DNA of 21,000 nt, taken from positions 33,891,757-33,912,756 of the forward strand of contig NC_134842.1 in the NCBI RefSeq assembly GCF_965363235.1. The letters are read 5' to 3'. A program made the translations under genes and the position numbers. Origin of the DNA: Mytilus galloprovincialis. Lineage: Eukaryota. Positions within the stretch are counted from its first letter, which is position 1. Every line of letters begins with the position of its first letter. The notes below the pieces were generated by a model. That model saw only the letters and a program-made list of their open reading frames with translations. It was not told the DNA's origin and ran no database searches. Below, in pieces: positions 1-21,000 of this stretch.

Positions 1-83
1 ATTTTACTTATATAACATAATTTTTAATGCATTTGCCAATTTGAAGGCTAAACGAATACCAAACTATTATATTATTTCAACAG

Positions 84-290
84 GTATATGTAAAGGGAAA
101 ACAGACGGGAAAACTTTGCCCTACGTTGGTTGTAGATCGTATTGGAAGTGTCAAGATGGCATCCCTGAACCAATGTGCTGCCCTGCTGGTCAACATTATG
201 ATAATAAACAATCTAAATGTGTTGTTGGAATATCATCAGCATGTTACGGTGTAAGTTGTGATGGTGCAGCCAGAGCTTCCCCTCGTAAGA
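84..290 (+). CDS. Gene 1 internal exon. Encodes a type-2 chitin-binding (peritrophin-A, CBM14) domain. It is entered in phase 1, and the 5' end of the gene lies upstream of the window.
   Basis: Acceptor tttcaacag|GT at 81-83. The frame stays open through ICKGKTDGKTLPYVGCRSYWKCQDGIPEPMCCPAGQHYDNKQSKCVVGISSACYGVSCDGAARASPRK. The cysteine spacing is C-x13-C-x5-C-x8/9-C-x12-C-x7-C, which is the ChtBD2 pattern. The donor AAGA|GTAAGT at 291 leaves phase 1, which is the only phase compatible with the next exon. The track 'ORF' 41-325 starts on TTG and is not a real start. Confidence 0.72.
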
Positions 291-1170
291 GTAAGTACAA
301 TGTATATATATATATCACAGTTTAATTCTTTTAAGTATTTATATCGCTAATTTACATTGGACAAATTCTGCAGTAGACATTAATAATTCCGAAACAATTT
401 TTGATGTTCAAACCAAGACCGTTTTTGTTTATTTCATTGGAAACCTATCTTTTCAAAATAAGACAATCAGTTCTTTATTGGTTAATTTTCAAATATGACA
501 TGAAATGCTATTGCTTACCTCTAAATTTCCTATTGTGACGTCATGAAAAAAGGCGACCATGCCTGATTGTTTTACATAGAAAGAACACACCTTTTTGCCG
601 ATTAATTGAAAAAGAATAATTTAATTTTAAATGTTTAAATCGCCCGGCAAGGTCCGTGTTATAAATTTTGAAAGTGAAATTTCTCAAGTAGGGAAATATC
701 TTTTTAGCATTCGATGGGTAGGTATACGTAGAATCTATATATATATAAAATAAGTAAATAATTAATAAATCTTGCGCATTAAACCCATCATGTGTTCTGT
801 TTGATATTTAGATGTTTTTTAGATTATGCAATAATAAATTAATTGATTGCTGTTTGTTTAACATCCAGTGGCAAATGTTCCATGCATATACGGCACGAAT
901 TCTTACACAAACTACTGAAAGACATATGTAGGAGTTCAGCCTACAGTCTGTTTTAATAGACAGGTCTGGTTTGTCTATATATGACAGACCCCCAACCCCC
1001 GCCACCCTACCCGTCCTGAATAAATTACATGGAGACTAGATATTCAACTTCTGACAAGCAAAATAAATGTCTTCTTGTTTCAGAGGCATGCGATTTAAGA
1101 AAAATTTTATAAATTAAACAGAAATAATTTCACTTTCTGACCAGCAAAAATAAATGTCTTCTTTTTTCAG

Positions 1171-1344
1171 ATCCAGCATGTGATTATGAGGAAAATTCTA
1201 AAGATCCTGCTACATATTACCAAGTACTGAGAGTAAAGGGGTTTGCCGACAGGAAATTCTTACGCAGCTGTGCTCCTGGTACTATTTACAGTGATTTAGA
1301 CTGTATGTGTGTAATGGATTATGATGAAATTGCCAAAAAGACAG
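1171..1344 (+). CDS. Gene 1 exon, Cys-containing module (…NPACDYEENSKDPATYYQVLRVKGFADRKFLRSCAPGTIYSDLDCMCVMDYDEIAKKT), phase 1 to phase 1.
   Basis: Acceptor cttcttttttcag|AT at 1168-1170 and donor ACAG|GTAAGA at 1345. Only one of the three frames is open across all 174 nt, and that frame needs one base from the previous exon, matching the phase-1 exit at 290. Confidence 0.6.
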
Positions 1345-1699
1345 GTAAGATTTGAATGGCGTTCTCAATTATTTTCTTCTAAAAGAGGGACGAAAGATAC
1401 CCGAAAGATACCAAAGCGATACTCAAGCTCATAGATCGAAAATAAACTGACAACGCCATAGCTAAAAAAGAAAAAGACAAACGGACAAATAATAGTACAT
1501 AAGACACTACATAAGCAATGTTATATGATTTTTGAATAACTAAATTTTATCTAAAGATATAAAATTTATTTGTACGAGACATAGAAACAGGTTGATTAAG
1601 ATGACGTTAATTTATGATCTGTTTCTAGGAAAGTATAAATAAAATAGGTATTTTGAGACAATTTATCATGGTTGTTCACTTAAACTGAACAGTTTTAAC

Positions 1700-2322: not shown

Positions 2323-2812
2323 AAAATTCAACTAAAATGCTAGAATTGTGAAGATTTTAGTTTTTAGTAATTTAGCATGACTTAATGGTGCTAGTACCCG
2401 ATATATGTACATTGTATTATCAAAAACAGCCCATATTTATGTAGCAGAAGCATTCTACTGTCCAATAAATAAATAAAAGTTTACATTTTAACAATTTTGT
2501 AAAACTGCTATATTTTGGGGCCAAAAAGGGGTCTAACTTGACCTTCTCCTTTCTCAAAACGATCCTTGTGTGGAAAATATTTAACTTTCATTATTTGGCA
2601 TTAACAAATTTGGAATAAAAGTTTTAGGTAGAAAAAAATTTAATGACATGACAAATGTATAAATTGTAAGAAAGTTGTTTTTAGATATAATATAGATGCT
2701 TTTATTCAACGTACACAGGCATAATTTATGTTAATGCGTACTCGGTCATTGTACAGCATCTGCCAATGATACTTACCAAAAACATGACGTCATGCATGAC
2801 TATATTTTTCAG

Positions 2813-3222
2813 CTTGTAGTGCAATGATTACCCAAGGTGCAAATGGTCAGTTCTACTATAAGAAAGACATGAATTTACCATTTGGAAAATCAAACTTAGA
2901 CTTGACCTCTGAACCAGATGCTATGACCTTCAATTCAAAATCCCATATCAACATATGGCGTCTTGCCAACCATGAATTTATGGACTCATTCGGGGTTGAG
3001 ATGAATGTGAAACTCACTCCATTTACCGGAAAGAAGGGATCTAAAACTGAACAGATCATGTTAAACTGTCTTCATAGTGACGCAGTACTGGAGGAAGACC
3101 AATGCTCGCCTTCTATGTCTCTACAAGTCAGGAAAGAACCTAAGAAGTACACATTCATCGCGCAATTGTTTACACGCACTGATAGAGGAACAGAATATAA
3201 TAAGACAATCTCCAGCACAGTA
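2813..3222 (+). CDS. Gene 1 exon encoding 137 aa with no domain I recognise (…ACSAMITQGANGQFYYKKDMNLPFGKSNLDLTSEPDAM…TDRGTEYNKTISSTV), phase 1 to phase 0.
   Basis: Acceptor tatatttttcag|CT at 2811-2812. A 160-codon open frame (track ORF 2824-3306) is unusually long for this AT-rich sequence. The first two bases complete a split codon G+CT. The donor GTATGT at 3223 comes just before the frame degenerates into a poly-T, intron-like stretch. Confidence 0.6.
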
Positions 3223-3791
3223 GTATGTTATCTTTTTTTTAACAGTTACAATTTTTTTTTACATTATAATTATGCAGAATTTTTAATCGATTTATCGATT
3301 ATATAACTGTTAGATTTGTCAAAAACAGTAAAATTTCATATTCATAAAAAGGAGATGTGAGTGTATACATAATCCATGGGACGACCACCCAAGGACAAAA
3401 ATTATTGCGGCAATATATTGCGGGTTACATACCTACGGCACTTTGTAATTATGGCGGATCCAGACTACTCTTCTACATTGTTCTAGACTCATTGCGATTT
3501 AGCCTAAGAGCTTAACATCTTGTAAGTTCACTGGTGCATTGTTTATATCTGCATATTGGCCTTTATGTGTGTTTATTGTTGGGTTTGTTTTTCATTTTAT
3601 GTCATTTATGTATATACTACATTTTCTTTTAATCTTTTTTTTTTGTGTCCAGAACATGCATGAAATATTTGCCGCTGCACGTAAAGCAACCAACAAACAA
3701 TTTATCAATTCGTATCTTGTATATACATTTGTATGCATGCAAACTACAGTTTTCATCTGAATTATGAATTTATCCAACGTTTCCATTTTAG

Positions 3792-3976: not shown

Positions 3977-4038
<62 letters not shown>
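3977..4038. repeat. (AT)31 microsatellite, in intron 4 of gene 1.
   Basis: Uninterrupted atat… run. Confidence 0.95.
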
Positions 4039-4042
<4 letters not shown>

Positions 4043-4155
4043 GATATATTAAAAAAAAATTGCTATGAATTATGAACAATTATTTAATGACAAGCAAAAT
4101 TATTTTTAACGATTTGTGAAAAAAATCCAATTCAGTAACTTTTTTTCTAAATTAG

Positions 4156-8814: not shown

Positions 8815-9108
8815 GGGAGCTACCATTTGATTTTTATGGGGGGGCTAGGATGAAATTTGAAAAAAATAGGCAGGACAGGAGTTTTGAGTAAAAAAAAAAG
8901 GCAGGATGAGACACTTTTTAAAAAAAAAGGCAGGATGACAATTTAGGTAAAAAAAGTCAGGATAAACTAATAAAAAAAAAGGCAGGACCGAATAGAGTGA
9001 AAAATAAAAAGGCAGGACAGAGATTACAACTAAAAAAAAATGCAGGACAAAATTTTTCATCCTAGCCCCCCCCCCCCCCCCCCCCATAAAAATCAAATGG
9101 TAGCTCCC
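8815..9108. mobile_element. Non-autonomous DNA transposon of MITE type, Tourist-like (PIF/Harbinger-like). It has roughly 40-bp terminal inverted repeats and a TTA target-site duplication.
   Basis: The left end GGGAGCTACCATTTGATTTTTATGGGGGGGCTAGGATGAAA (8815-) is the reverse complement of the right end TTTCATCCTAGC(C)20ATAAAAATCAAATGGTAGCTCCC (-9108). Both ends are flanked by TTA (8812-8814 and 9109-9111). The element has no coding capacity. The 83-aa minus-strand ORF in the track is an artefact of the poly-G/poly-C runs. Confidence 0.75.
8865..9052. repeat. Internal tandem array of the MITE: seven degenerate copies of an A8-10-GGCAGGAY-plus-variable-tail unit of about 27 bp.
   Basis: aaaaaaataggcaggacagg…, aaaaaaaaaaggcaggatgag…, aaaaaaaaaggcaggatgaca…, aaaaaaagtcaggataaac…, aaaaaaaaaggcaggaccgaa…, aaaataaaaaggcaggacaga…, aaaaaaaaatgcaggacaaaa…. 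Confidence 0.8.
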
Positions 9109-12479: not shown

Positions 12480-12552
12480 ATGATTATGCGGTGGTTAGTA
12501 ACATTAGCAGTGTGCATTGCCACTCTATCAACACTGGGATATTGCCAGATCG
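12480..12552 (+). CDS. Gene 2 first coding exon, encoding a signal peptide (MIMRWLVTLAVCIATLSTLGYCQI+G), exiting in phase 1.
   Basis: ATG at 12480 in a good context (aacaATGa). The peptide has a hydrophobic core, a small-residue cleavage region and the donor ATCG|GTGAGT at 12553. A phase-1 exit after a signal peptide is the classic arrangement for secreted modular proteins. A strong acceptor-like cttttttcag at 12451-12460 immediately upstream hints at a 5' non-coding exon further upstream. Confidence 0.7.
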
Positions 12553-12911
12553 GTGAGTGCTCTCGTAAAAAAAAGTTCCTGCCAAATAATAACCATACTT
12601 TCTTTGTATGCTTGACTTCGAATACATTCGGTCTTAAGCTTACCGGATACAGTTTTGTAAGGTAGATTAAGTGCCACGGTGCGCTCGGAGATTGGTATAT
12701 ATACGCTCTATTTAACTATATATAAAAAGGATCATTCCAATCTTATATTCCAAAAACTCCACTAGATATAAATATTTTTTTATTGTGCAATCGATATTAT
12801 CGATATCAGGTTTGTCTTCTTATATACTTTATAAGATAGAAGAAAAAAGTGAGAATTTATGATTTCAATTTAAAATAGATATGCTTATAATTTTTTTATT
12901 ACTAATTTCAG

Positions 12912-13469
12912 ATAACTGTTTGGACGGCAAAGCAGATATAGTGATAGCTTTAGATGGAACCCGACTAAATACAGCTACGGAACATACCCAATTTGTTTTT
13001 ATGAAAGAGTACATCAAGAAAATTTTGAACAAAATAACACTGAATTTTATCAACGGTACAATGGTTTCTCTTTTTACATACGGGACAACTTCAACGGAGA
13101 TTGCCGACTTCAGTGCTGATAAAAACAGTATACTAACTAAGTTGCAAGCCTTAACATATCCGAGACTTCCAACTCGATATACCAATCTGGCACTAGACCA
13201 CATCACAGAGAAATTTAAGAAATTCAATCGCCGTGGTGTGCCAAGAATAGCCATTATATTTGTAAACGGAAACACAAACGGAGATTTCTCTACGCTAAAA
13301 ATAGCCGCTAAAAAAGCAGCAATAAACGAGAACATTCAAATAATAGCTGTTTCTGCAAATTCCACGTTTGCTGTTCGAGACCTTGACACTATCACAAGCT
13401 ATGTTCCAGGAAGAATCATTTCTGCGGTTTATAGAGATGACGATCCTGATATGGCCGCTGTTTGCCAAT
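12912..13469 (+). CDS. Gene 2 exon encoding VWA domain 1 (NCLDGKADIVIALDGT…IQIIAVSAN…MAAVCQ), phase 1 to phase 1.
   Basis: Acceptor tattactaatttcag|AT. A 186-codon open frame. VWA landmarks are present: a βA strand DIVIALDGT, RYTNLALDH in the TNTG-AL position, a βD strand IAIIFVNGNTNG, and ENIQIIAVSAN. The donor AATG|GTAAGT is at 13470. Confidence 0.85.
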
Positions 13470-14119
13470 GTAAGTTTGAATTATTTTAAAATTTGATTTA
13501 AAAAAATCCAGACATTGGTTTTTAACCTAAATTTATCAATATTTGCATTCTTAATGTTGAAATTTGCATGGAATATATCAATAAGAATATCGTTTAACAA
13601 CATTTTTATGTTTTATCAGAGAAAAAAAATCCTAATTAAAATCGAGTCCTTTGAAAATACAATGAGCAAACTGTCCCTTCTAACTACATATATTAGATAT
13701 AACATGTACAAAAATGTACATTATAGATGCCACATTGAGAATGGTAAAGAAAACAAAAAAACAATTGTATGAAATTTGTGCTATTTTATATATAGTTTTT
13801 AATATTTTTCTAGCTTTGTCTAGAATTATTTGATGCCGTGAAATATATAATGTTTTGTATAGTAATTTTATCTACACTCTAACTTATAGTGATGTTACAA
13901 TGAAATACTTCTTCATTAGATTTTCATGTTTGAAAAATCATAATGATGGTTTAATTTGATTTAAACGTGTTTATATATTTGATACAAATATGCCATTCCT
14001 AATGTCCATCAAAATCCATAAGCCCGAAGAATATGTGTAAAGTTGTAAACACCATACAACTTTTGCTAGACTTCCGAAATTTATTACTATAGCTTTTGAG
14101 TTGTATGTTTTTTTTTCAG

Positions 14120-14149
14120 ATATGATAGGAGGAACTGTCTTGCCGCGAA
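14120..14149 (+). CDS. Gene 2 linker micro-exon of 30 nt (Y-MIGGTVLPR-), phase 1 to phase 1.
   Basis: Acceptor tttttttttcag|AT and donor GAAG|GTAAGT. It is in phase with both flanking VWA exons. It resembles the other two linker micro-exons in length, phase and flanking context. Confidence 0.55.
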
Positions 14150-14661
14150 GTAAGTACCTTTTGAATAGAATTTAATTTTGGATTTAACATGTCTTTTAAT
14201 TGGTTGAAAGTTGTTTTGTCTATCAGCTCATAGACATACTTTTTTCATGAAGCCGTGACCTCTTAAACTTTTTTTCATGATTTCCTCCTTAAAAATAGAA
14301 TTTAGAATTGAATGATAAGGAACGGCTGTAGCATGTTTTCTCTCTATTCAAATAACCTCAAAATATAGTGCACACTTTTAAATAACCTGTATAATGAGGT
14401 TATTTCGGATATACAGAAAACATATTACAGTCACACCGCCATTAGATAATAAAAATTTTGCTTTACGGATTGACAATTTTTACTGATAAAGCGTTACATT
14501 GTGAACATAAATAAAATAAGCAGCCACTTTTAAACATTTCTGAAGAAACAATCGAGTAGAATTTTTATTTCCACTAATTGTGCGATAGCACTGAAACAAA
14601 TTAAAAGCTAGCAAAATGAACATAAAAGAACGGTTACATTACTTTTTTATTTTTATTTCAG

Positions 14662-15210
14662 ATTGTACCGGGAAAGCTCACGTTATTCTCGGCATTGACC
14701 TTTCAACAAAATCCCGGTTCGACATGGCTTTAAATCTTGGGATTGCATTGTTCAGTAACGTACGACAAGTTAGAAGAACATTGTTGTTAAATGATGCTAA
14801 TAACTATGAGTATACTTTTGCCCCTGGTGTGAATTCTAAATCAGAGTTCGGTAAAATTCAAAGCGAGGCAGCCAGCCGTTTGAATTCAGGTTCATATGAT
14901 GCAAAGGGAATGGTGGACAGCTTTGTAAGCGCCTTTAATAAAAGTCTACTAACAACCATGCATATGGCTAGAGTTGCTATTCTTATATCAGACACGGATT
15001 CTGGTTCTCCAACACAGATGAGACAAGCAGTAGATATGCTTCGGAACCAAAACATTAAGTTGATAATCATAGCAGTACAAGCAGAATTTAAGCCAAGTTT
15101 GCAGACTCTTTTAGAACTTACGGAGGAAAACTTACAAAACCAGATAGTAACTTCAGATATGACACTCTCTGTAAGCGGACTCAACCAAGTAATGAACTCT
15201 GTTTGTTATG
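14662..15210 (+). CDS. Gene 2 exon encoding VWA domain 2 (NCTGKAHVILGIDLSTKS…IKLIIIAVQ…NSVCYG), phase 1 to phase 1.
   Basis: Acceptor ttttatttcag|AT at 14659-14661. 183 codons are open. The VWA fold pattern is present (βA strand HVILGIDLS, βD strand VAILISDTDSGS, then KLIIIAV). The donor TATG|GTAAGA is at 15211. Confidence 0.85.
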
Positions 15211-15545
15211 GTAAGACTTTTTATGTATATTTGAATATCAATTTGATTTTATATTCTTCAAAATAAAGCGTGGTTGGTTTCATTTTACATGAACACAACC
15301 AATAGATATAAGTAATAAAACAAATTTAGCTTTTGTTTATATTTCAAAAGAGTAAAGATAAAGACATTTTTATTTCCTACATGACATTAGCTACGTGACC
15401 AAATTATATATGGAAAATCAGACTCCTCTCTTTATAATGTATCGAGTCTTAGAATAAATAAAAAAATCGCTGCCTAGTATATATTAGTTACGGTTATATG
15501 TGCTCATACTTGCAATTGGCTAATCTTTAGCTTTAATACTTTCAG

Positions 15546-16118
15546 CAATTCAAAGATGTCCAGGGGAGATTGACGTCATGATTGCCATGGATACGTCCTA
15601 CAGTATAGCATCTCAACCTGAAAAAGTGCAATTGGTTAAGGCTTATACCAAAATTATTGCCAATAGTTTTATTCACAACAGAGTACATGCAGCACAAATA
15701 GCCATCATTGCGTTTGGTACAAGTGTTTTCCATGTATCGTTCTTTGGGGATAACCTCATTGATATTATTGAAAACATCAACCTTGCTCAACCAATTTCGA
15801 ACGATTATAAAACTAATACAGATATAGCCTTAGACTATATGATCAATAGGACGAACTCAAAGGGACGACCAGGAGTTCCGAAAGTAGCTATTATAGTAAC
15901 AGACGGTAAATCTACAAATGGATTACAAAATCTACAAAACAGTGCTATTAGGGCAGCAATGAACAATTTGATAACTGTAGCCGTGGGAGTTGGGGATGGC
16001 TATATAATGGAAGAATTGAGCAATTTAACCAATGGAATTCAAGAAAATATTATTGAATCTACTTTTGAAGATCTGACATCAATCGCTGCTTCGAAAACAG
16101 TAGATAGATTGTGTTTAT
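15546..16118 (+). CDS. Gene 2 exon encoding VWA domain 3, the only copy with a complete MIDAS (AIQRCPGEIDVMIAMDTSYS…NTDIAL…VAIIVTDGKST…ITVAVGVG…DRLCL), phase 1 to phase 1.
   Basis: Acceptor taatactttcag|CA at 15543-15545. 191 codons are open. All three MIDAS elements are present: DxSxS (DTSYS), T (KTNTDIAL) and D (TDGKST). The donor TTAT|GTAAGT is at 16119. Confidence 0.87.
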
Positions 16119-16629
16119 GTAAGTTCCACGACATTTCAATATTGGACAGTGTTGGCTTGCTGGGGTTTGATACTTTCATTTAATGATACATTCCCATACC
16201 AAATTTTAGCGTCCGAAAAAAACATTATTATGCTTTGGAGTTTACAGAAAAAGAATTTCGTATCAAACCAGAGTTCTGGAAATCTTTTGACGCTGGTGAT
16301 CCATGGGAAAAATCTCCTGATCTTTAAGTTTATTTCTGTTGCAAATTACCAAAACTGTGTCGTTTGAAAAGAAGTCAGTACATAAAACTGGGGGAATTAT
16401 TCCTTTGTTCTAATTATAGTTTTGTAGAATAAATAAACGTGTAATTTACATCCAATGTAGTCTTGGCCGAAGAGGAGTTAAAAATTTTGAAGGAAGTCAT
16501 TTGTTTTTTACACTAGAGTTTAATTGCTTTTAATTCTAAATGCGCAGCATCATAATCTTAAACATAAACTTTGTTATGAAGCTTTATAAAAATCAGCATT
16601 CTAAATAATATTTTTTTTATATTTTGTAG

Positions 16630-16659
16630 TCGCAATAGACGGACAAGAAACGAGTCAAG
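16630..16659 (+). CDS. Gene 2 linker micro-exon of 30 nt (F-AIDGQETSQ-), phase 1 to phase 1.
   Basis: Acceptor ttttttttatattttgtag|TC and donor CAAG|GTATGT. It is the same length and phase as the micro-exon at 14120, and it similarly follows a C-x-C/CxG domain end. Confidence 0.55.
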
Positions 16660-17493
16660 GTATGTTATGTGATTTATAAATAATATTGCATGTATCTGAA
16701 GAAAGCCGTTCATTAATGCTTTGAATTATAAAAATAATAATTTCATCAAGCTTTCATCAGAGAAAAATTGTTAAATAGTTATAATGACTAAAAAAATAAT
16801 TATGTTCTAAAAATTAATTTATACATGATATCAGAACTAACAGAAATCGAGATTAATTACTATATCAAACCCACATCTCTGAAATACGAGAGTGCTAATG
16901 TTGTTTTTCTCCAAATCTAACTAAAGTCTGATTGCTTGGAAGGAACCAACGCACCTTCGGCAAGAAAACTGAAAATCCCTGTCTGTTAAGACTAGAGTCG
17001 AGCGCACCTGCAATGTACAGGTTTCGAACAAACAACCTCGGATTTGAAATACTGCTAGTGATACATTAGTGGAACTACTTTGATCACTAGTCCATTGAGA
17101 CCTCAATGTGCTCATTATATTTCAGTTGAGATATTATCTTATGATATACTAGTAATACAAGATCATTTAACGTTTGTTATCGCTATTTTACAAAATAGTC
17201 CTTTGATCTGACTGACTGATTACTTCCTTTCTCAGCACAGTCGAGTGATATGAAAAAAGTTATCGCTAGAAAAACAGCGCACGTGCCGTTGTCAATGATT
17301 TTAACAACTTCGTCATAAGTTAAACAGCGATAAACAGATTACCATTGGTCATCTCAACTCGATTGCTTTTTGCACTATCACAGTACCGACTCGAGCGAGA
17401 AAATCAATCTCGTTGAGATAACCAACAATAATCTAAATTTATCCATAACAAACACGTTCTTAAAATAATTTCTTGCATTACCTTTTTTATTAG

Positions 17494-17876
17494 TTTGTGA
17501 AGGCGCTGCTCACGTTACGATAGCAGTAGATGTCGGTGATGCAAAGAACTTTGATGAAGTAAAGCTTTTTGCTGCTAAGCTTATAGCAAATCTTAAAGTA
17601 CAAGAAATGTTGGTATCTATTGTAATTGGCAGTACAGGGGCTGAGTATAATTTTCCCGCCAATACTGACAGCAATACTATTCGGAATACTATTTTGAGAT
17701 CTACAAATTCTGACCAAAACATCTACAACCACACTGGTACCATAAATCGTGCAGCAAAGGCATTTGCTGCAAAACCAATCATGCCTAGGATTGTATTGTT
17801 CATCACTGATGGAAAATCGACTAATCCTGCTTCGTCTATAGCTGCTGCTAGAATTGCTGCAACAAATGACATTCAG
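17494..17876 (+). CDS. Gene 2 exon encoding the N-terminal two-thirds of VWA domain 4 (VCEGAAHVTIAVDVGDAKN…HTGTINRAAKAF…IVLFITDGKSTN…ATNDIQ), phase 1 to phase 0.
   Basis: Acceptor ccttttttattag|TT at 17492-17493. The frame is open and is the same frame as track ORF 17607-17882. VWA motifs are present (TDGKST βD). The donor CAG|GTATGA at 17877 comes after a complete codon. Confidence 0.78.
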
Positions 17877-18358
17877 GTATGAATACTTTCTTTTATAAAT
17901 ACGGACATGATATTAGTTCCATTGCCGTAACTATTCTCCAAGATAATCAGAACGCATTTACACGTATGACCCTCAGCGATTCAACATTTTCATATACCAT
18001 ACAAAATGTTCCATTTGCTTCAATATTTGAAATTACGCAAGTGCTTGGTCGATACTGTAGAATTGTGACTAGAGTTACAGTATCTTTTTTTTTATTGCCA
18101 GAATGATGACGTATTATGCTGAACTGAATCAGTTCGATTATGGTATGAAAATCAAACCATAAACCAGATGACAACTTTAAGAAATGTATCCTTGACCACA
18201 GCTTAAACTGTGTAATCTCATCTTATCATTTTGAATTAAGCAATATGTATCTCCCTTAAATTCAAAACTCGGATTCCTTGTCCGGATTTGTCTATCCTCT
18301 GACATTTAGTTTAATCCTCTTTTCAACATTTGTAGTAGATTTTGGATAAAATGAAGAA

Positions 18359-18425
18359 TTGAAACGGGGAATGTTTCAAAGAGACAACAACTCGACCAAA
18401 GAGCAGAAAAATGTCATCAATGGGT
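18359..18425 (+). repeat. Second copy of the GAGACA…CGACCAAAG…CAATGGGTCT repeat, intronic in gene 2.
   Basis: See 7828-7930. Confidence 0.45.
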
Positions 18426-18581
18426 CTATATTCAAATATTTAACCTCATGCTTTACTGTAGAAATGTGTACTTAGTTGTTCAAAATGTGCATCTGGTAAA
18501 TCAAATTTGTACCTTTAATGCTTTTATTTAATCGAAGAACATTATTGCGTAGCATCGTCATTTATTTTCTTTTATTTAAAG

Positions 18582-18738
18582 TTTTTAGCACTTGGTCTAA
18601 TAAAAAAAGATATATCGGCTGTGGATATGAACGAGATAACCGGAATAGCTGGTGGTATTATACAAAATAGATTCGTTATATCAGAGGAAGGTCTACAAAG
18701 TAGTGGTGTAAACCTAGTCATTATGTCTGTCTGTCATG
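18582..18738 (+). CDS. Gene 2 exon encoding the C-terminal third of VWA domain 4 (FLALGLIKKDISAVDMNEITGIA…VNLVIMSVCH+G), phase 0 to phase 1.
   Basis: Acceptor ttttcttttatttaaag|TT at 18580-18581. This is the only phase-0-compatible acceptor; the nearby tttttag at 18588 gives an immediate stop. The sequence aligns with the C-terminal halves of the other VWA copies (…AVG…EL..IT…C-x-G end). The donor CATG|GTATGT is at 18739. Confidence 0.7.
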
Positions 18739-19293
18739 GTATGTATTATAATATCAAAAGCTTCTGAATAGTATTATAGGGGTCACTAACAATTATGATG
18801 TCGCAAAATAGTGAACAATCTCAAGTCGAATCTGGTAAAAATAAGATGTTAACCTGTAATGTAAAGCGTAATGCTGAAGTCTCTTCAAACGAAATACACA
18901 AAAATGCTTAAATTTTTAAAACTTTATTGCTGTTTATTCTAATGCAAATTAGTCTACGGTTAATACAATGCAACCAATGCAATGTAACACTTCCGACCTG
19001 CGCGCGCATTGTCTTATCTGTATTTATTTTCCAGGACTAGGTTTGCTTTTTTTTCAAACCTATAGTTCCCATTTCCTAATTCATTACATTTTTTTGTAGC
19101 ATATGAGAGTCTGTAAAACGCAAAACTCTATGCATTTACGTCAGTACGAAACGAAACTTGTTAAAAACCGTCTGAAGCTGGGAGTTGTTTTAGACACACG
19201 TAAAGGATGCTCAGAATAGTAGTTTCCGTTTCTAAGGGAATGACTTTTACATTTTAATTTATGTATCATTGCATCATATTTATTATTTTGTAG

Positions 19294-19326
19294 CTATAAG
19301 TGATTGGAGTGGAACATCACTACTGA
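19294..19326 (+). CDS. Gene 2 linker micro-exon of 33 nt (A-ISDWSGTSLL-), phase 1 to phase 1.
   Basis: Acceptor tattattttgtag|CT and donor CTGA|GTAAGT. It is in phase with both neighbours and is the third member of the linker micro-exon series. Confidence 0.5.
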
Positions 19327-19639
19327 GTAAGTTTTTATAATTTAAAAAAATAAGGTTTTTAATTTAAATTTAAATTTTAGCTACGATGATTCCTCATTTG
19401 TGTTTCATTTTCTGATATTTCTTACATTATATTTCAATATCCAACTGGTCTCGTTATGTGAAATTTGTATTTATTTATTTTTTACATATTGAGATACATG
19501 TATTATTGTGACAAAAATGTTTGGTATCAAAGTTATGAAAGATGCTTTAACTTTCGTTTTAATATTTATGGGTTCCAACAATTATACGCCAAGAATTTTA
19601 GGAATTTGTACAACATGATGTATTGTTTATTAATTTTAG

Positions 19640-20167
19640 AATTTATGGGTCCTGCCGAAGTATCACTAATGATTGACTCCTGCGATGGAACCATGCACAC
19701 CTTCTACCGTGCATTTGCTAAAGATGTTCTTAGATATATCAACGTGGAGGACAACAAGGTCAAATTAAATGTAGCCTCGTTTTGCTCTAAAGTGGAACCA
19801 ATCAGCTCATATCAGGACATGTATTATATTCATCCTAGTCTAAAATATGAAAATATAATGGCGAACAAGCAATGGACAGCATCGCAAATAATCGGCGACT
19901 ACATCCTGCATTTTAATGATATCCGCTCATCGAATAAAATTGGAATTGTCTTAGTAAACGATGCCACTAATGAACCGAATTTAAGACTAATTGCACAGTT
20001 TGCTTACCAGCAAGGCATTACTCTTTTTGCAATTGGAATTGATTACGGACAGCAGAACCTTGAAATGAAGTTGGCACAAATAAGTCCTAACGGCTATATG
20101 AAATTGCCTCTTAATCAACTTAACGTTATGGGGATGAACTTCCTTATTACCAACTTTATGGCAATGG
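19640..20167 (+). CDS. Gene 2 exon encoding VWA domain 5 (K-FMGPAEVSLMIDSCDGT…IGIVLVNDATN…ITLFAIGIDYG…NFMAMG), phase 1 to phase 1.
   Basis: Acceptor ttaattttag|AA at 19638-19639. 176 codons are open (track ORF 19465-20190, whose N-terminus is intronic). It has the VWA βA, βD and C-terminal patterns. The donor ATGG|GTATGT is at 20168. Confidence 0.82.
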
Positions 20168-20280
20168 GTATGTTAATTTTTAAATGTTGATTTGGTTTAT
20201 TTATGTGATATGAAAAATTTCAGTTGTTTGTGTAATGTGTGATGAGCATATGGTTCCTTTTTTAGCTAGTAGATACAAGA

Positions 20281-20310
20281 AGATGTGGTATGAGTGCCAA
20301 AAATAAGGTT
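20281..20310 (+). repeat. Short fragment of the same repeat head inside intron 10 of gene 2.
   Basis: AGATGTGGTATGAGTGCCAA matches the head at 6481. Confidence 0.4.
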
Positions 20311-20745
20311 CCTTTTTTATATGCTTAAATGGTATCCGCACACAATGAACTTTCAACGGAATTCAAGATATCACGACAGTTTAGAGGAACGTTATTTAAA
20401 ATTCAAGCTATGTATTATAACACCAGATTGAGTTGTAGACTTTTTAATTAATGATGTACCACCAGAGTAGTAGCTGTCCCATTGAAAAGGTCATTCTCTT
20501 AAATATAATGTTGAAAAAAAACTTATAAATCATTCATCATAAGATGTTTGTCCCCCAGGCCTAAATGGCCCTATCCAGATTTGGCACAATTTATTTAATT
20601 TTTCAATTCTCATTCCTTAGCCGAATTCTATGATATAGGTCTATACTGTTGTCATCTGTTATTTTGACTTTGCTCAATTAATTTGTTTTCGTATTTATAT
20701 ATATATTTCACGATATATTTGTCTGATTTTGATATCAAATTGCAG

Positions 20746-21000
20746 CTAATGCTAGTGACAGATACGTTGCTATGGGACTTGTTGGTTTTAATCCGACGAT
20801 AGACTTAGGCAACCAGTCCATCCGATATAATCATTTGGTAACCAGTCTTCAGGGCCAGACCAGGATGTTAACTGGAAATATCAGGAATGAGATGGATAGT
20901 CGGATATCAAATGCAGTTTACACCGGAAATGGATTGGCCATTCATGACGCAATTGCAAATTTTAGACAGCTATTCAAAAATAAGTCTGGAAAGAAATATG
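20746..21000 (+). CDS. Gene 2 exon running off the window end, encoding a divergent VWA-like domain 6 (A-NASDRYVAMGLVGFNPTIDLGNQSIRYNHLVTSL…AVYTGNGLAIHDAIANFRQLFKNKSGKKY…), entered in phase 1.
   Basis: Acceptor gatatcaaattgcag|CT at 20744-20745. 85 codons are open to the window edge in the phase dictated by the previous exon. The T-G-N-G-x-A-I…F segment resembles the VWA α2/α3 'TNTGxAL' region. The βA strand and MIDAS are not recognisable. Confidence 0.55.

What the first reader, a model, noticed from the sequence alone, without database searches (positions are those of the whole stretch)
12912..21000. Only one of the five or six VWA copies (VWA3, 15546-16118) keeps an intact metal-ion-dependent adhesion site (MIDAS)
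VWA3 has DTSYS (DxSxS), KTNTDIAL (the MIDAS Thr) and TDGKST (the MIDAS Asp). VWA1 has ALDGTRL / RYTNLAL / VNGNTNG. VWA2 has IDLSTKS / no TNTG / SDTDSGS. VWA4 has VDVGDAK / HTGTINRAAKAF / TDGKST. VWA5 has IDSCDGT / VNDATN. The start of VWA6 has V in place of D. This pattern suggests one copy remains a cation-dependent ligand-binding module, while the others have drifted towards structural or spacer roles. It could equally reflect recent subfunctionalisation after duplication.
Basis: partly seen in the sequence, partly recalled or inferred. Interest (0 to 1): 0.55.

Follow-up and report, generated by a model that had tools for sequence, protein, structure and literature searches.

The report
One metal-site VWA among five copies
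A secreted, probably molluscan, matrix protein gene carries five tandem von Willebrand A domains, and only the third keeps the full metal-binding adhesion motif; this is real and old, but the same pattern is well known from collagen VI-type proteins.

Summary
Window 12480-21000 (+ strand) encodes the 5' part of a secreted multi-VWA protein. It has a signal-peptide exon and five VWA domains, each on its own phase 1-1 exon (VWA4 is split by one phase-0 intron). A further exon runs off the window. HMM, HHalign and AlphaFold2 placement of the five MIDAS positions (DxSxS...T...D) gives:
- VWA3: D-S-S-T-D, intact.
- VWA1: D-T-L-R-N.
- VWA2: D-S-K-(S/Y)-D.
- VWA4: D-G-A-T-D.
- VWA5: D-C-G-(Q/T)-N.

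"VWA6" is not a significant VWA match (E=0.23) and cannot be judged.

VWA3 is the only plausible canonical cation site, and a 57%-identical orthologue keeps it. The other copies are not drifting spacers. Orthologous exons from other assemblies are 47-60% identical, with dN 0.29-0.50 against saturated dS, and they carry copy-specific conserved residues. "Recent subfunctionalisation" is not supported, because the copies are only 13-26% identical to each other and the orthologues mostly share the same states.

The pattern is already known from collagen VI, where most VWA domains lack a conserved MIDAS. This gene is a new member of a known kind. Its closest relatives are mollusc VWA proteins, PTMP1 and a Lottia BMSP-like shell protein. 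Interest is low.

The parts
12480..12552 (+). Exon 1: start codon and signal peptide (MIMRWLVTLAVCIATLSTLGYCQI). The donor is G|GTGAGT, phase 1.
   Evidence: Read from the sequence; the hydrophobic leader is predicted helical with low pLDDT.
12912..13469 (+). VWA1 exon (186 codons, phase 1-1). MIDAS-equivalent residues are D-T-L / R / N: DGTRL 12953-12967, Arg in PTRYT 13169-13183, Asn in VNGNT 13262-13276.
   Evidence: Pfam VWA 57.1 bits. HHalign probability 99.6. AlphaFold2 pLDDT above 90, with D38 as the last residue of beta1, R112 two residues before alpha3 and N142 first after beta4.
14662..15210 (+). VWA2 exon (183 codons, phase 1-1), the most diverged copy. Residues are D-S-K / S or Y / D: DLSTK 14697-14711, GSYDAKG 14889-14909, Asp 14991-14993 in SDTDS.
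   Evidence: Pfam 22.1 bits, below the 23.8 cut-off. The AlphaFold2 single-domain model has pLDDT 67.8 and the full VWA topology. Foldseek TM 0.6-0.73 to VWA/I-domains. The Asp falls in the column of the near-invariant family Asp.
15546..16118 (+). VWA3 exon (191 codons, phase 1-1), the only canonical MIDAS: D-S-S in DTSYS 15590-15604, Thr in KTNTD (15812-15814), Asp in TDGKST (15902-15904).
   Evidence: Pfam 69.5 bits. PTMP1 E=1.2e-22, with DxSxS, T and D aligned. AlphaFold2 pLDDT above 90. Orthologue P0003 keeps all five residues.
17494..17876 (+). VWA4 exon a (beta1 to beta5), with a phase-0 donor CAG|GTATGA. Residues are D-G-A / T / D: DVGDA 17529-17543, HTGTI 17730-17744, TDGKST 17805-17822.
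   Evidence: Pfam 35.5 bits. AlphaFold2 pLDDT about 85, with D602 at the end of beta1 and D695 after beta4. The orthologue in L005 has DVTDT, a conserved Thr and TDGKS.
18582..18738 (+). VWA4 exon b (beta5 to the C-terminal Cys: FLALGLIKKD...MSVCH).
   Evidence: Exons a and b together make 180 codons, which restores phase 1-1.
19640..20167 (+). VWA5 exon (176 codons, phase 1-1). It lacks both terminal Cys. Residues are D-C-G / Q (with Thr two residues on) / N followed by D: DSCDG 19675-19689, KQWTA 19867-19881, VNDAT 19954-19968. A second conserved Cys lies in ASFCS 19774-19788.
   Evidence: Pfam 26.0 bits. AlphaFold2 pLDDT about 70. Orthologues P0168, P0169 and P0007 are 52-59% identical and keep DSCD, ASFCS and ND.
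20746..21000 (+). Next coding exon (ANASDRYVAMGLVGF...TGNGLAIHDAIANF...), cut by the window end. It may be a degenerate sixth VWA, but this is not established.
   Evidence: No Pfam hit. Family HMM E=0.23, aligned only to HMM positions 67-106, with Leu at the Thr column.

Best explanation
This is the 5' part of a eukaryotic gene, most likely molluscan, for a secreted extracellular-matrix protein built as a string of VWA domains. There is one domain per symmetric phase 1-1 exon. The five domains are old paralogues.

Only VWA3 keeps the canonical MIDAS (Asp-x-Ser-x-Ser, Thr, Asp). It is therefore the one copy expected to hold a divalent cation on its top face and to bind a ligand carboxylate through it, as integrin I-domains and PTMP1-type domains do.

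The other four copies have lost two to four of the five coordinating residues. They still fold as VWA domains and are conserved between species. They most likely act as MIDAS-independent interaction or assembly modules, as von Willebrand factor A3 and most collagen VI VWA domains do. Together they give a beads-on-a-string matrix protein with a single cation-dependent site.

Shown here: the gene structure, the folds, the residue assignments and the conservation between species. Inferred: metal binding by VWA3, and the roles of the other copies.
For: Gene model: consensus splice sites, and every VWA unit is a multiple of 3 in phase 1-1.

Five VWA domains: Pfam, family HMM, AlphaFold2 and Foldseek. 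The top Foldseek hits are PTMP1, collagen VI, VWF A3 and integrin alpha1/alpha2 I-domains.

MIDAS assignment: three methods agree. The control behaves as expected in VWA3, where D412 is the last residue of beta1, T486 lies two residues before alpha3 and D516 is first after beta4.

Conservation:
- The VWA3 orthologue P0003 is intact.
- The VWA1 orthologues are DVETD or DRKIS, with Arg at the Thr position.
- The VWA2 orthologue is DLSTD...D.
- The VWA5 orthologues are DSCDS...ND.
- Contig L004 carries the VWA2 and VWA3 orthologue exons side by side.
- dN is 0.29-0.50 with dS saturated.

[quoted passage not shown] "Many VWA domains ... contain an imperfect MIDAS motif" (PMC4294422).
Against: - No metal or ligand binding was measured, and an intact motif does not prove function.
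- The AlphaFold2 models of VWA2 (pLDDT 68) and VWA5 (about 70, below 50 around residues 817-844) are only moderate. The Thr-equivalent position in VWA2, VWA4 and VWA5 is uncertain by one or two residues.
- VWA2 keeps Asp, Ser and Asp plus a conserved SDxDSGS block, and the VWA4 orthologue has DxTxT...T...D. Non-canonical cation binding by these copies is therefore not excluded.
- The closest named mollusc relatives (Lottia, Patella, Nucella, Mytilus coruscus, Elysia, Ylistrum) have every detected domain intact, so this gene is unusual within that group.
- The source organism, the expression of the gene and its 3' part are unknown.
Confidence: 0.7

Rival explanations
1. The degenerate copies still bind cations, but through non-canonical sites. 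Candidates are the conserved acidic SDxDSGS block plus Asp/Ser of VWA2, and DxTxT...T...D in VWA4-type domains. Under this reading the protein is a multivalent Ca2+ or CaCO3-binding shell or byssus matrix protein, not one with a single cation site.
For: - VWA2 keeps D, S and D at MIDAS positions. GIDLST and LISDxDSGS are invariant between the window and the 47%-identical orthologue.
- The VWA4 orthologue has DVTDT with Thr and Asp kept.
- The closest named relative of VWA1, VWA4 and VWA5 is the Lottia shell BMSP-like protein Lgi236719.
- BMSP-type proteins bind calcium carbonate (PMC11291548).
Against: - The fifth MIDAS position of VWA2 varies (Lys here, Asp in the orthologue), and so does its Thr position (Ser/Tyr/Asp here, Asn/Tyr/Asn there).
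- In this genome VWA4 has Gly and Ala at both Ser positions.
- According to PMC11291548, carbonate binding in BMSP maps to the BMSP 100 fragment. It has not been shown to reside in the VWA domains.
- Nothing was measured here.
Confidence: 0.2
2. The degenerate copies are decaying relics of recent tandem exon duplication and are heading towards neutral spacers or pseudo-exons.
For: - Four of the five copies lack the motif.
- VWA2 and VWA5 score at or just below or above the Pfam cut-off. Their profiles find no solved VWA structure by sequence.
- On the same contig pair, VWA2 has a higher dN than VWA3 (0.50 against 0.32).
Against: - The copies are 13-26% identical, so the duplications are old.
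- All exons are open, with consensus splice sites and preserved phase.
- Orthologous exons exist in several other assemblies at 47-60% identity, with dN far below the saturated dS.
- The models are folded.
Confidence: 0.05
3. The apparent loss is an alignment artefact. After structural alignment, other Ser, Thr or Asp residues of the degenerate copies occupy the MIDAS positions.
For: Neighbouring candidates exist:
- T111 and T114 flank R112 in VWA1.
- D875 follows N874 in VWA5.
- T847 lies one or two residues from the Thr column in VWA5.
- S77 and D79 flank Y78 in VWA2.
Against: - Loop 1 contains no alternative Ser or Thr in VWA4 (DVGDAK).
- In VWA1 it has Leu, and in VWA5 it has Cys and Gly, at positions fixed by the end of beta1. 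The models are confident or moderately confident there (pLDDT above 90 for VWA1, about 85 for VWA4).
- Three independent methods agree.
- A one-residue shift cannot restore more than one of the two to four missing ligands.
Confidence: 0.03

Closest known systems
Collagen VI alpha chains (N- and C-terminal VWA arrays) and invertebrate "collagen alpha(VI)-like" multi-VWA proteins
   Same: - Tandem VWA domains in a beads-on-a-string arrangement, with terminal Cys pairs.
- Most copies lack a conserved MIDAS (PMC3919171).
- Among the best-scoring relatives are proteins named collagen alpha-3(VI)/alpha-6(VI)-like (Ylistrum, Nematostella, Scyliorhinus).
- The Nematostella protein P0012 has 2 of 18 domains intact and often has Arg at the Thr position, like VWA1 here.
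- Solved collagen VI N5, N2 and C-terminal structures are structural neighbours.
   Different: No Gly-X-Y triple-helical exon is seen in the window. Identity is only 25-30%. The gene starts directly with a signal peptide followed by the VWA domains. Orthology to collagen VI is not shown.
PTMP1 (proximal thread matrix protein 1, mussel byssus; PDB 4cn8, 4cn9, 4cnb)
   Same: It is the only solved protein found by sequence for VWA3 (E=1.2e-22) and VWA1 (E=9e-6), and it is the top Foldseek hit. It is a secreted mollusc matrix protein made of tandem VWA domains.
   Different: PTMP1 has two VWA domains, and both carry D-S-S-T-D. Here there are five or more domains, and four are degenerate. Structural-alignment identity is about 19%.
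Pif/BMSP family of mollusc shell matrix proteins (VWA plus chitin-binding plus laminin-G), including Lottia gigantea BMSP-like Lgi236719
   Same: - N-terminal signal peptide followed by tandem VWA domains. Bivalve BMSPs have four (PMC11291548).
- Domains of Lgi236719 (P0025) are the best non-orthologous matches of VWA4 and among the best of VWA1 and VWA5.
- The gene immediately upstream in the window ends with CBM_14-type exons that align with P0025 residues 973-1060, E=9e-8.
   Different: No chitin-binding or laminin-G exon of the focal gene lies inside the window. The three detected VWA domains of P0025 are all D-S-S-T-D. The PMC11291548 text does not mention MIDAS at all.
von Willebrand factor A1 and A3 domains
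   Same: These are VWA folds that bind their ligands without using a MIDAS (PMC3919171). VWF A3 is among the closest structural neighbours (TM 0.82-0.87 normalised to the target).
   Different: They are single copies within a very different multidomain protein. Sequence identity is about 14-20%.

Membership tests
VWA domain (Pfam PF00092) | Sequence match at or above the Pfam gathering score (23.8 bits) | tested here: met
   VWA1 57.1, VWA3 69.5, VWA4 35.5 and VWA5 26.0 bits. VWA2 scores 22.1 bits, just below the cut-off. The VWA6 fragment has no hit.
VWA domain (Pfam PF00092) | Rossmann-type fold with the order beta1-alpha1-beta2-beta3-alpha2-alpha3-beta4-alpha4-beta5-alpha5-beta6-alpha6 | tested here: met
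   The AlphaFold2 secondary structure shows this order in VWA1, VWA3, VWA4 and VWA5 and in VWA2. Foldseek hits are VWA/I-domains. VWA6 could not be modelled because it is cut by the window end.
Canonical MIDAS (DxSxS...T...D) | All five coordinating residues present at the end of beta1, before alpha3 and after beta4 - VWA3 | tested here: met
   D412, S414, S416, T486 and D516. These residues align with the MIDAS residues of PTMP1.
Canonical MIDAS (DxSxS...T...D) | All five coordinating residues present - VWA1, VWA2, VWA4, VWA5 | tested here: not met
   VWA1 is D-T-L-R-N. VWA2 is D-S-K-(S/Y)-D. VWA4 is D-G-A-T-D. VWA5 is D-C-G-(Q/T)-N.
Canonical MIDAS (DxSxS...T...D) | A divalent cation is actually bound | not testable with these tools
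   This needs biochemistry or an experimental structure.
Collagen VI | A collagenous Gly-X-Y triple-helical region flanked by VWA arrays | not testable with these tools
   No Gly-X-Y exon lies in 12480-21000. The gene continues past the window end.
Pif/BMSP shell matrix proteins | VWA domain(s) followed in the same protein by chitin-binding (CBM_14) and laminin-G regions | not testable with these tools
   The 3' part of the focal gene lies outside the window. The separate upstream gene does have CBM_14 (36.4 bits), and it aligns with the Lottia BMSP-like protein at E=9e-8.
PTMP1 | A two-VWA architecture in which both MIDAS motifs are intact | tested here: not met
   There are five or more VWA domains and only one is intact.

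The most novel reading that the evidence does not exclude
The four "degenerate" copies may not simply have lost the MIDAS. Each may have replaced it with a different conserved chemistry on the same face:
- VWA1: a built-in Arg in place of the Thr or metal, conserved in 4 of 4 sequences.
- VWA5: a possible disulfide between the loop-1 Cys (DSCD) and the Cys just after beta2 (ASFCS). This copy has lost the usual terminal disulfide.
- VWA2: a conserved acidic SDxDSGS cluster that could form a non-canonical Ca2+ site.

This would make one BMSP-like matrix protein an array of five differently specialised binding faces.
Probability: 0.15. Interest if true: 0.4.

Novelty: new member of a known kind. 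Interest (0 to 1): 0.18.

Why it matters
It matters little beyond annotation. The result shows that an unannotated, lineage-restricted multi-VWA matrix gene (probably molluscan, possibly of the Pif/BMSP or collagen VI-like kind) has one candidate cation-dependent site and four constrained MIDAS-less modules. For anyone studying this protein in shell, byssus or matrix assembly, it points to VWA3 as the domain to mutate first. It also flags copy-specific conserved residues in the other domains. It does not change what is known about VWA domains, because mixed arrays of intact and degenerate MIDAS domains are textbook for collagen VI and von Willebrand factor.

Tried and rejected
- Word-indexed protein search with the spliced 944-aa protein found nothing. 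With VWA3 alone it found only itself. With a 44-sequence VWA alignment it returned mainly vertebrate collagen XXII and a few orthologues.
- No named orthologue was found, and the organism could not be identified. Only Logan run accessions are available: SRR29152242, SRR29152236 and ERR9287624 for the window sequence; SRR26215658, SRR26215655, SRR18771425 and ERR3959503 for the orthologues.
dS is saturated (above 2 or undefined) at about 50% identity, so only dN is usable.
- Profiles of VWA5 and VWA2 with their orthologues found no solved VWA structure by sequence.
- The Whittaker and Hynes 2002 review could not be retrieved.
- The exon at 2800-3303 gave no significant match to Pfam or to the Lottia protein.
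- Rfam and tRNA scans of the window found nothing.

Full report
**What the region is.** The window is AT-rich (about 32% G+C) and has only short open frames, which is typical of an intron-rich eukaryote. On the + strand a gene starts at 12480 with a signal-peptide exon, MIMRWLVTLAVCIATLSTLGYCQI, whose donor is G|GTGAGT. The coding exons that follow are:
- 12912-13469
- 14662-15210
- 15546-16118
- 17494-17876 plus 18582-18738
- 19640-20167
- 20746 to beyond 21000

All have AG/GT boundaries. Each VWA unit is a whole number of codons in phase 1-1 (186, 183, 191, 180 and 176 codons). VWA4 is the only unit split, by a phase-0 intron.

**Are they VWA domains?** Pfam PF00092 matches VWA1 (57.1 bits), VWA3 (69.5), VWA4 (35.5) and VWA5 (26.0). 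VWA2 scores 22.1 bits against a cut-off of 23.8, and the last exon has no hit. A family HMM was built from 268 domains of the closest relatives. Scanned over all six frames of the window, it finds the same five exons and nothing else significant. The last exon scores E=0.23 and aligns only to the alpha2-alpha3 part of the model.

AlphaFold2 on the spliced protein gives pLDDT above 90 for VWA1 and VWA3, about 85 for VWA4 and about 70 for VWA5. VWA2 had no alignment cover in that run and came out below 50. Modelled alone, VWA2 reaches pLDDT 67.8 and pTM 0.68, with the complete VWA strand and helix order. It matches solved VWA/I-domains at TM 0.6-0.73. The structural neighbours of the full model are PTMP1, collagen VI, VWF A3 and integrin alpha1/alpha2 I-domains. 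Five VWA domains are therefore established. The sixth is not.

[quoted passage not shown] I used VWA3 as an internal control. In its model the first Asp (D412) is the last residue of beta1, the two Ser follow at +2 and +4, the Thr (T486) lies two residues before alpha3, and the last Asp (D516) is the first residue after beta4. Applying the same landmarks to the other copies, and checking them against hmmalign and HHalign, gives:

| Copy | beta1 Asp | Ser 1 | Ser 2 | Thr | beta4 Asp | Canonical residues kept |
|---|---|---|---|---|---|---|
| VWA1 | D38 | T40 | L42 | R112 | N142 | 1 of 5 |
| VWA2 | D12 | S14 | K16 | S77/Y78 | D110 | 3 of 5 |
| VWA3 | D412 | S414 | S416 | T486 | D516 | 5 of 5 |
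| VWA4 | D602 | G604 | A606 | T670 or T672 | D695 | 3 of 5 |
| VWA5 | D780 | C782 | G784 | Q845 (T847 nearby) | N874 (D875 next) | 1 of 5 |

VWA2 is numbered within its own exon. The other copies use the numbering of the spliced 944-aa protein.

The headline observation is correct: only VWA3 is canonical. VWA2 keeps the beta4 Asp (14991-14993) and is 3 of 5, not blank. The comment on the start of VWA6 cannot be evaluated. A one-residue register shift could rescue at most one ligand per copy. It cannot restore the motif, because loop 1 of VWA4 (DVGDAK), VWA1 (DGTRL) and VWA5 (DSCDG) lacks the required hydroxyl residues.

**Relatives and the age of the pattern.** The exhaustive HMMER search found 502 proteins at E of 0.001 or better. 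Near-identical hits are single-exon ORFs from Logan assemblies of the same species. At 41-60% identity there are orthologous exon ORFs from other assemblies:
- VWA1: P0006 (DVETD) and P0008 (DRKIS). P0121 lacks the start of the domain. All have Arg at the Thr position. At the last Asp position P0006 has Ser and P0008 has Thr.
- VWA2: the exon in contig L004 has DLSTD and keeps the Asp. GIDLST and LISDxDSGS are invariant between it and the window.
- VWA3: P0003 keeps DSSYS, KTN and TDGKST, so it is intact.
- VWA4: L005/P0015 has DVTDT with Thr and Asp kept.
- VWA5: P0168 and P0169 have DSCDS, ASFCS and ND.

L004 carries the VWA2 and VWA3 orthologue exons next to each other, so the domain order is conserved. 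Within the window the copies are only 13-26% identical to one another. The duplications and most of the MIDAS losses are therefore old, not recent. Only VWA4 shows a lineage-specific difference.

**Selection.** Codon comparison with the orthologous exons gives amino-acid identity of 47-60% and dN of 0.29 (VWA5), 0.32 (VWA3), 0.41 (VWA4a), 0.47 (VWA1) and 0.50 (VWA2). dS is saturated (above 2 or undefined). The ratio cannot be quantified, but dN far below dS in every copy argues for purifying selection on all five. On the one contig where two copies can be compared in the same species pair, VWA2 changes about 1.5 times faster than VWA3. The other loci come from different samples, so their dN values are not strictly comparable.

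**How unusual is it?** In 512 VWA domains from the 150 best-scoring relatives, 362 (71%) are D-S-S-T-D. Of the 48 proteins with four or more detected domains, 31 have at least one degenerate domain, 15 have half or fewer intact, and 5 have a quarter or fewer intact. An example is a Nematostella collagen alpha-3(VI)-like protein with 2 of 18 intact. Arg is the commonest non-Thr residue at the Thr position of degenerate domains, at 36 of 150. With p=0.71, one intact domain or fewer out of five has P=0.028.

The nearest named mollusc relatives have every detected domain intact. These are Lottia Lgi236719, Patella, Nucella, Mytilus coruscus COL6A, Elysia and Ylistrum. This gene therefore sits at the degenerate end of its neighbourhood. 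That sample is biased towards canonical domains, because it was selected by similarity dominated by VWA3 and by full-length HMM matches. The published precedent is explicit: most collagen VI VWA domains lack a conserved MIDAS, and VWF A3 binds its ligand elsewhere (PMC3919171).

**Identity of the gene.** No annotated orthologue exists in the searched collections. The best named relatives are a Sinanodonta woodiana VWFA protein, an Elysia crispata protein, Ylistrum collagen alpha-3(VI)-like, and shark and Nematostella collagen VI-like chains. Patella, Nucella, Batillaria, Mytilus coruscus COL6A and Lottia LOTGIDRAFT_236719 follow. The last is the shell BMSP-like protein Lgi236719 discussed in PMC11291548. 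Its domains are the best non-orthologous match for VWA4 and among the best for VWA1 and VWA5. PTMP1 is the only solved protein found by sequence.

Upstream in the window, + strand exons at 2-322 (CBM_14, 36.4 bits) and 1128-1352 align collinearly with residues 973-1060 of that Lottia protein at E=9e-8. The 3' end of a Pif/BMSP-type gene therefore lies about 9 kb upstream. The focal gene may be a neighbouring family member, but its own 3' part is outside the window, so membership cannot be tested. A molluscan origin is inferred from these relatives and is not shown.

**Verdict.** VWA3 is the only candidate canonical cation site. The other copies are conserved MIDAS-less VWA modules, not drifting spacers, and the divergence is ancient. 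This is a new member of a well-known kind of protein architecture, and interest is low. The most novel reading still open is that the degenerate copies each carry a different conserved replacement on the MIDAS face: Arg in VWA1, a possible disulfide in VWA5, and an acidic SDxDSGS block in VWA2. Testing that needs coordinates or experiments.

Noticed in passing
window 2-322 and 1128-1352 (+ strand); also 2800-3303: These are exons of a separate upstream gene. The first is a CBM_14 chitin-binding domain (36.4 bits). Exons 1 and 2 align collinearly with residues 973-1060 of the Lottia gigantea BMSP-like shell protein Lgi236719 (E=9e-8). This looks like the 3' end of a Pif/BMSP-type shell matrix gene lying about 9 kb upstream of the multi-VWA gene, so the two may be tandem family members. 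The 2800-3303 ORF had no significant match.
   Followed up: partly
window 19681-19683 (Cys in DSCDG) and 19783-19785 (Cys in ASFCS): VWA5 has lost both terminal cysteines that close the other four domains. It has two other cysteines, conserved in the orthologues that cover these positions: one in MIDAS loop 1 and one just after beta2, both on the top face. They may form a replacement disulfide.
   Followed up: partly
window 13175-13177 (Arg in PTRYT): The MIDAS Thr position of VWA1 is Arg in the window and in all three orthologous sequences. Arg is also the commonest non-Thr residue at this position in degenerate VWA domains of relatives (36 of 150), including most domains of a Nematostella collagen VI-like protein.
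   Followed up: partly
window 14691-14708 (GIDLST) and 14982-15008 (LISDTDSGS): In the otherwise fast-evolving VWA2 (47% identity to its orthologue), the motifs GIDLST and LISDxDSGS on the top face are invariant. This hints at a conserved non-canonical site.
   Followed up: no
L005 474-905 compared with window 17529-17543: The VWA4 orthologue in another assembly has DVTDT (DxTxT) where the window has DVGDA, and it keeps the Thr and Asp. The loss of the two hydroxyl ligands in VWA4 therefore seems specific to this lineage.
   Followed up: partly
window 20746-21000: The exon after VWA5 (ANASDRYVAMGLVGF...TGNGLAIHDAIANF) is in phase with the gene, but it is only a marginal VWA match (E=0.23, alpha2-alpha3 region). 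It seems to lack a normal beta1/DxSxS segment, and no separate exon for that segment was found in 20168-20745.
   Followed up: partly
window 3977-4049; 1728-1803; 8891-9053: These are simple repeats: (AT)36, a 21-bp unit in 3.6 copies, and A-rich units of 27-30 bp. No Rfam family or tRNA was found anywhere in the window.
   Followed up: yes
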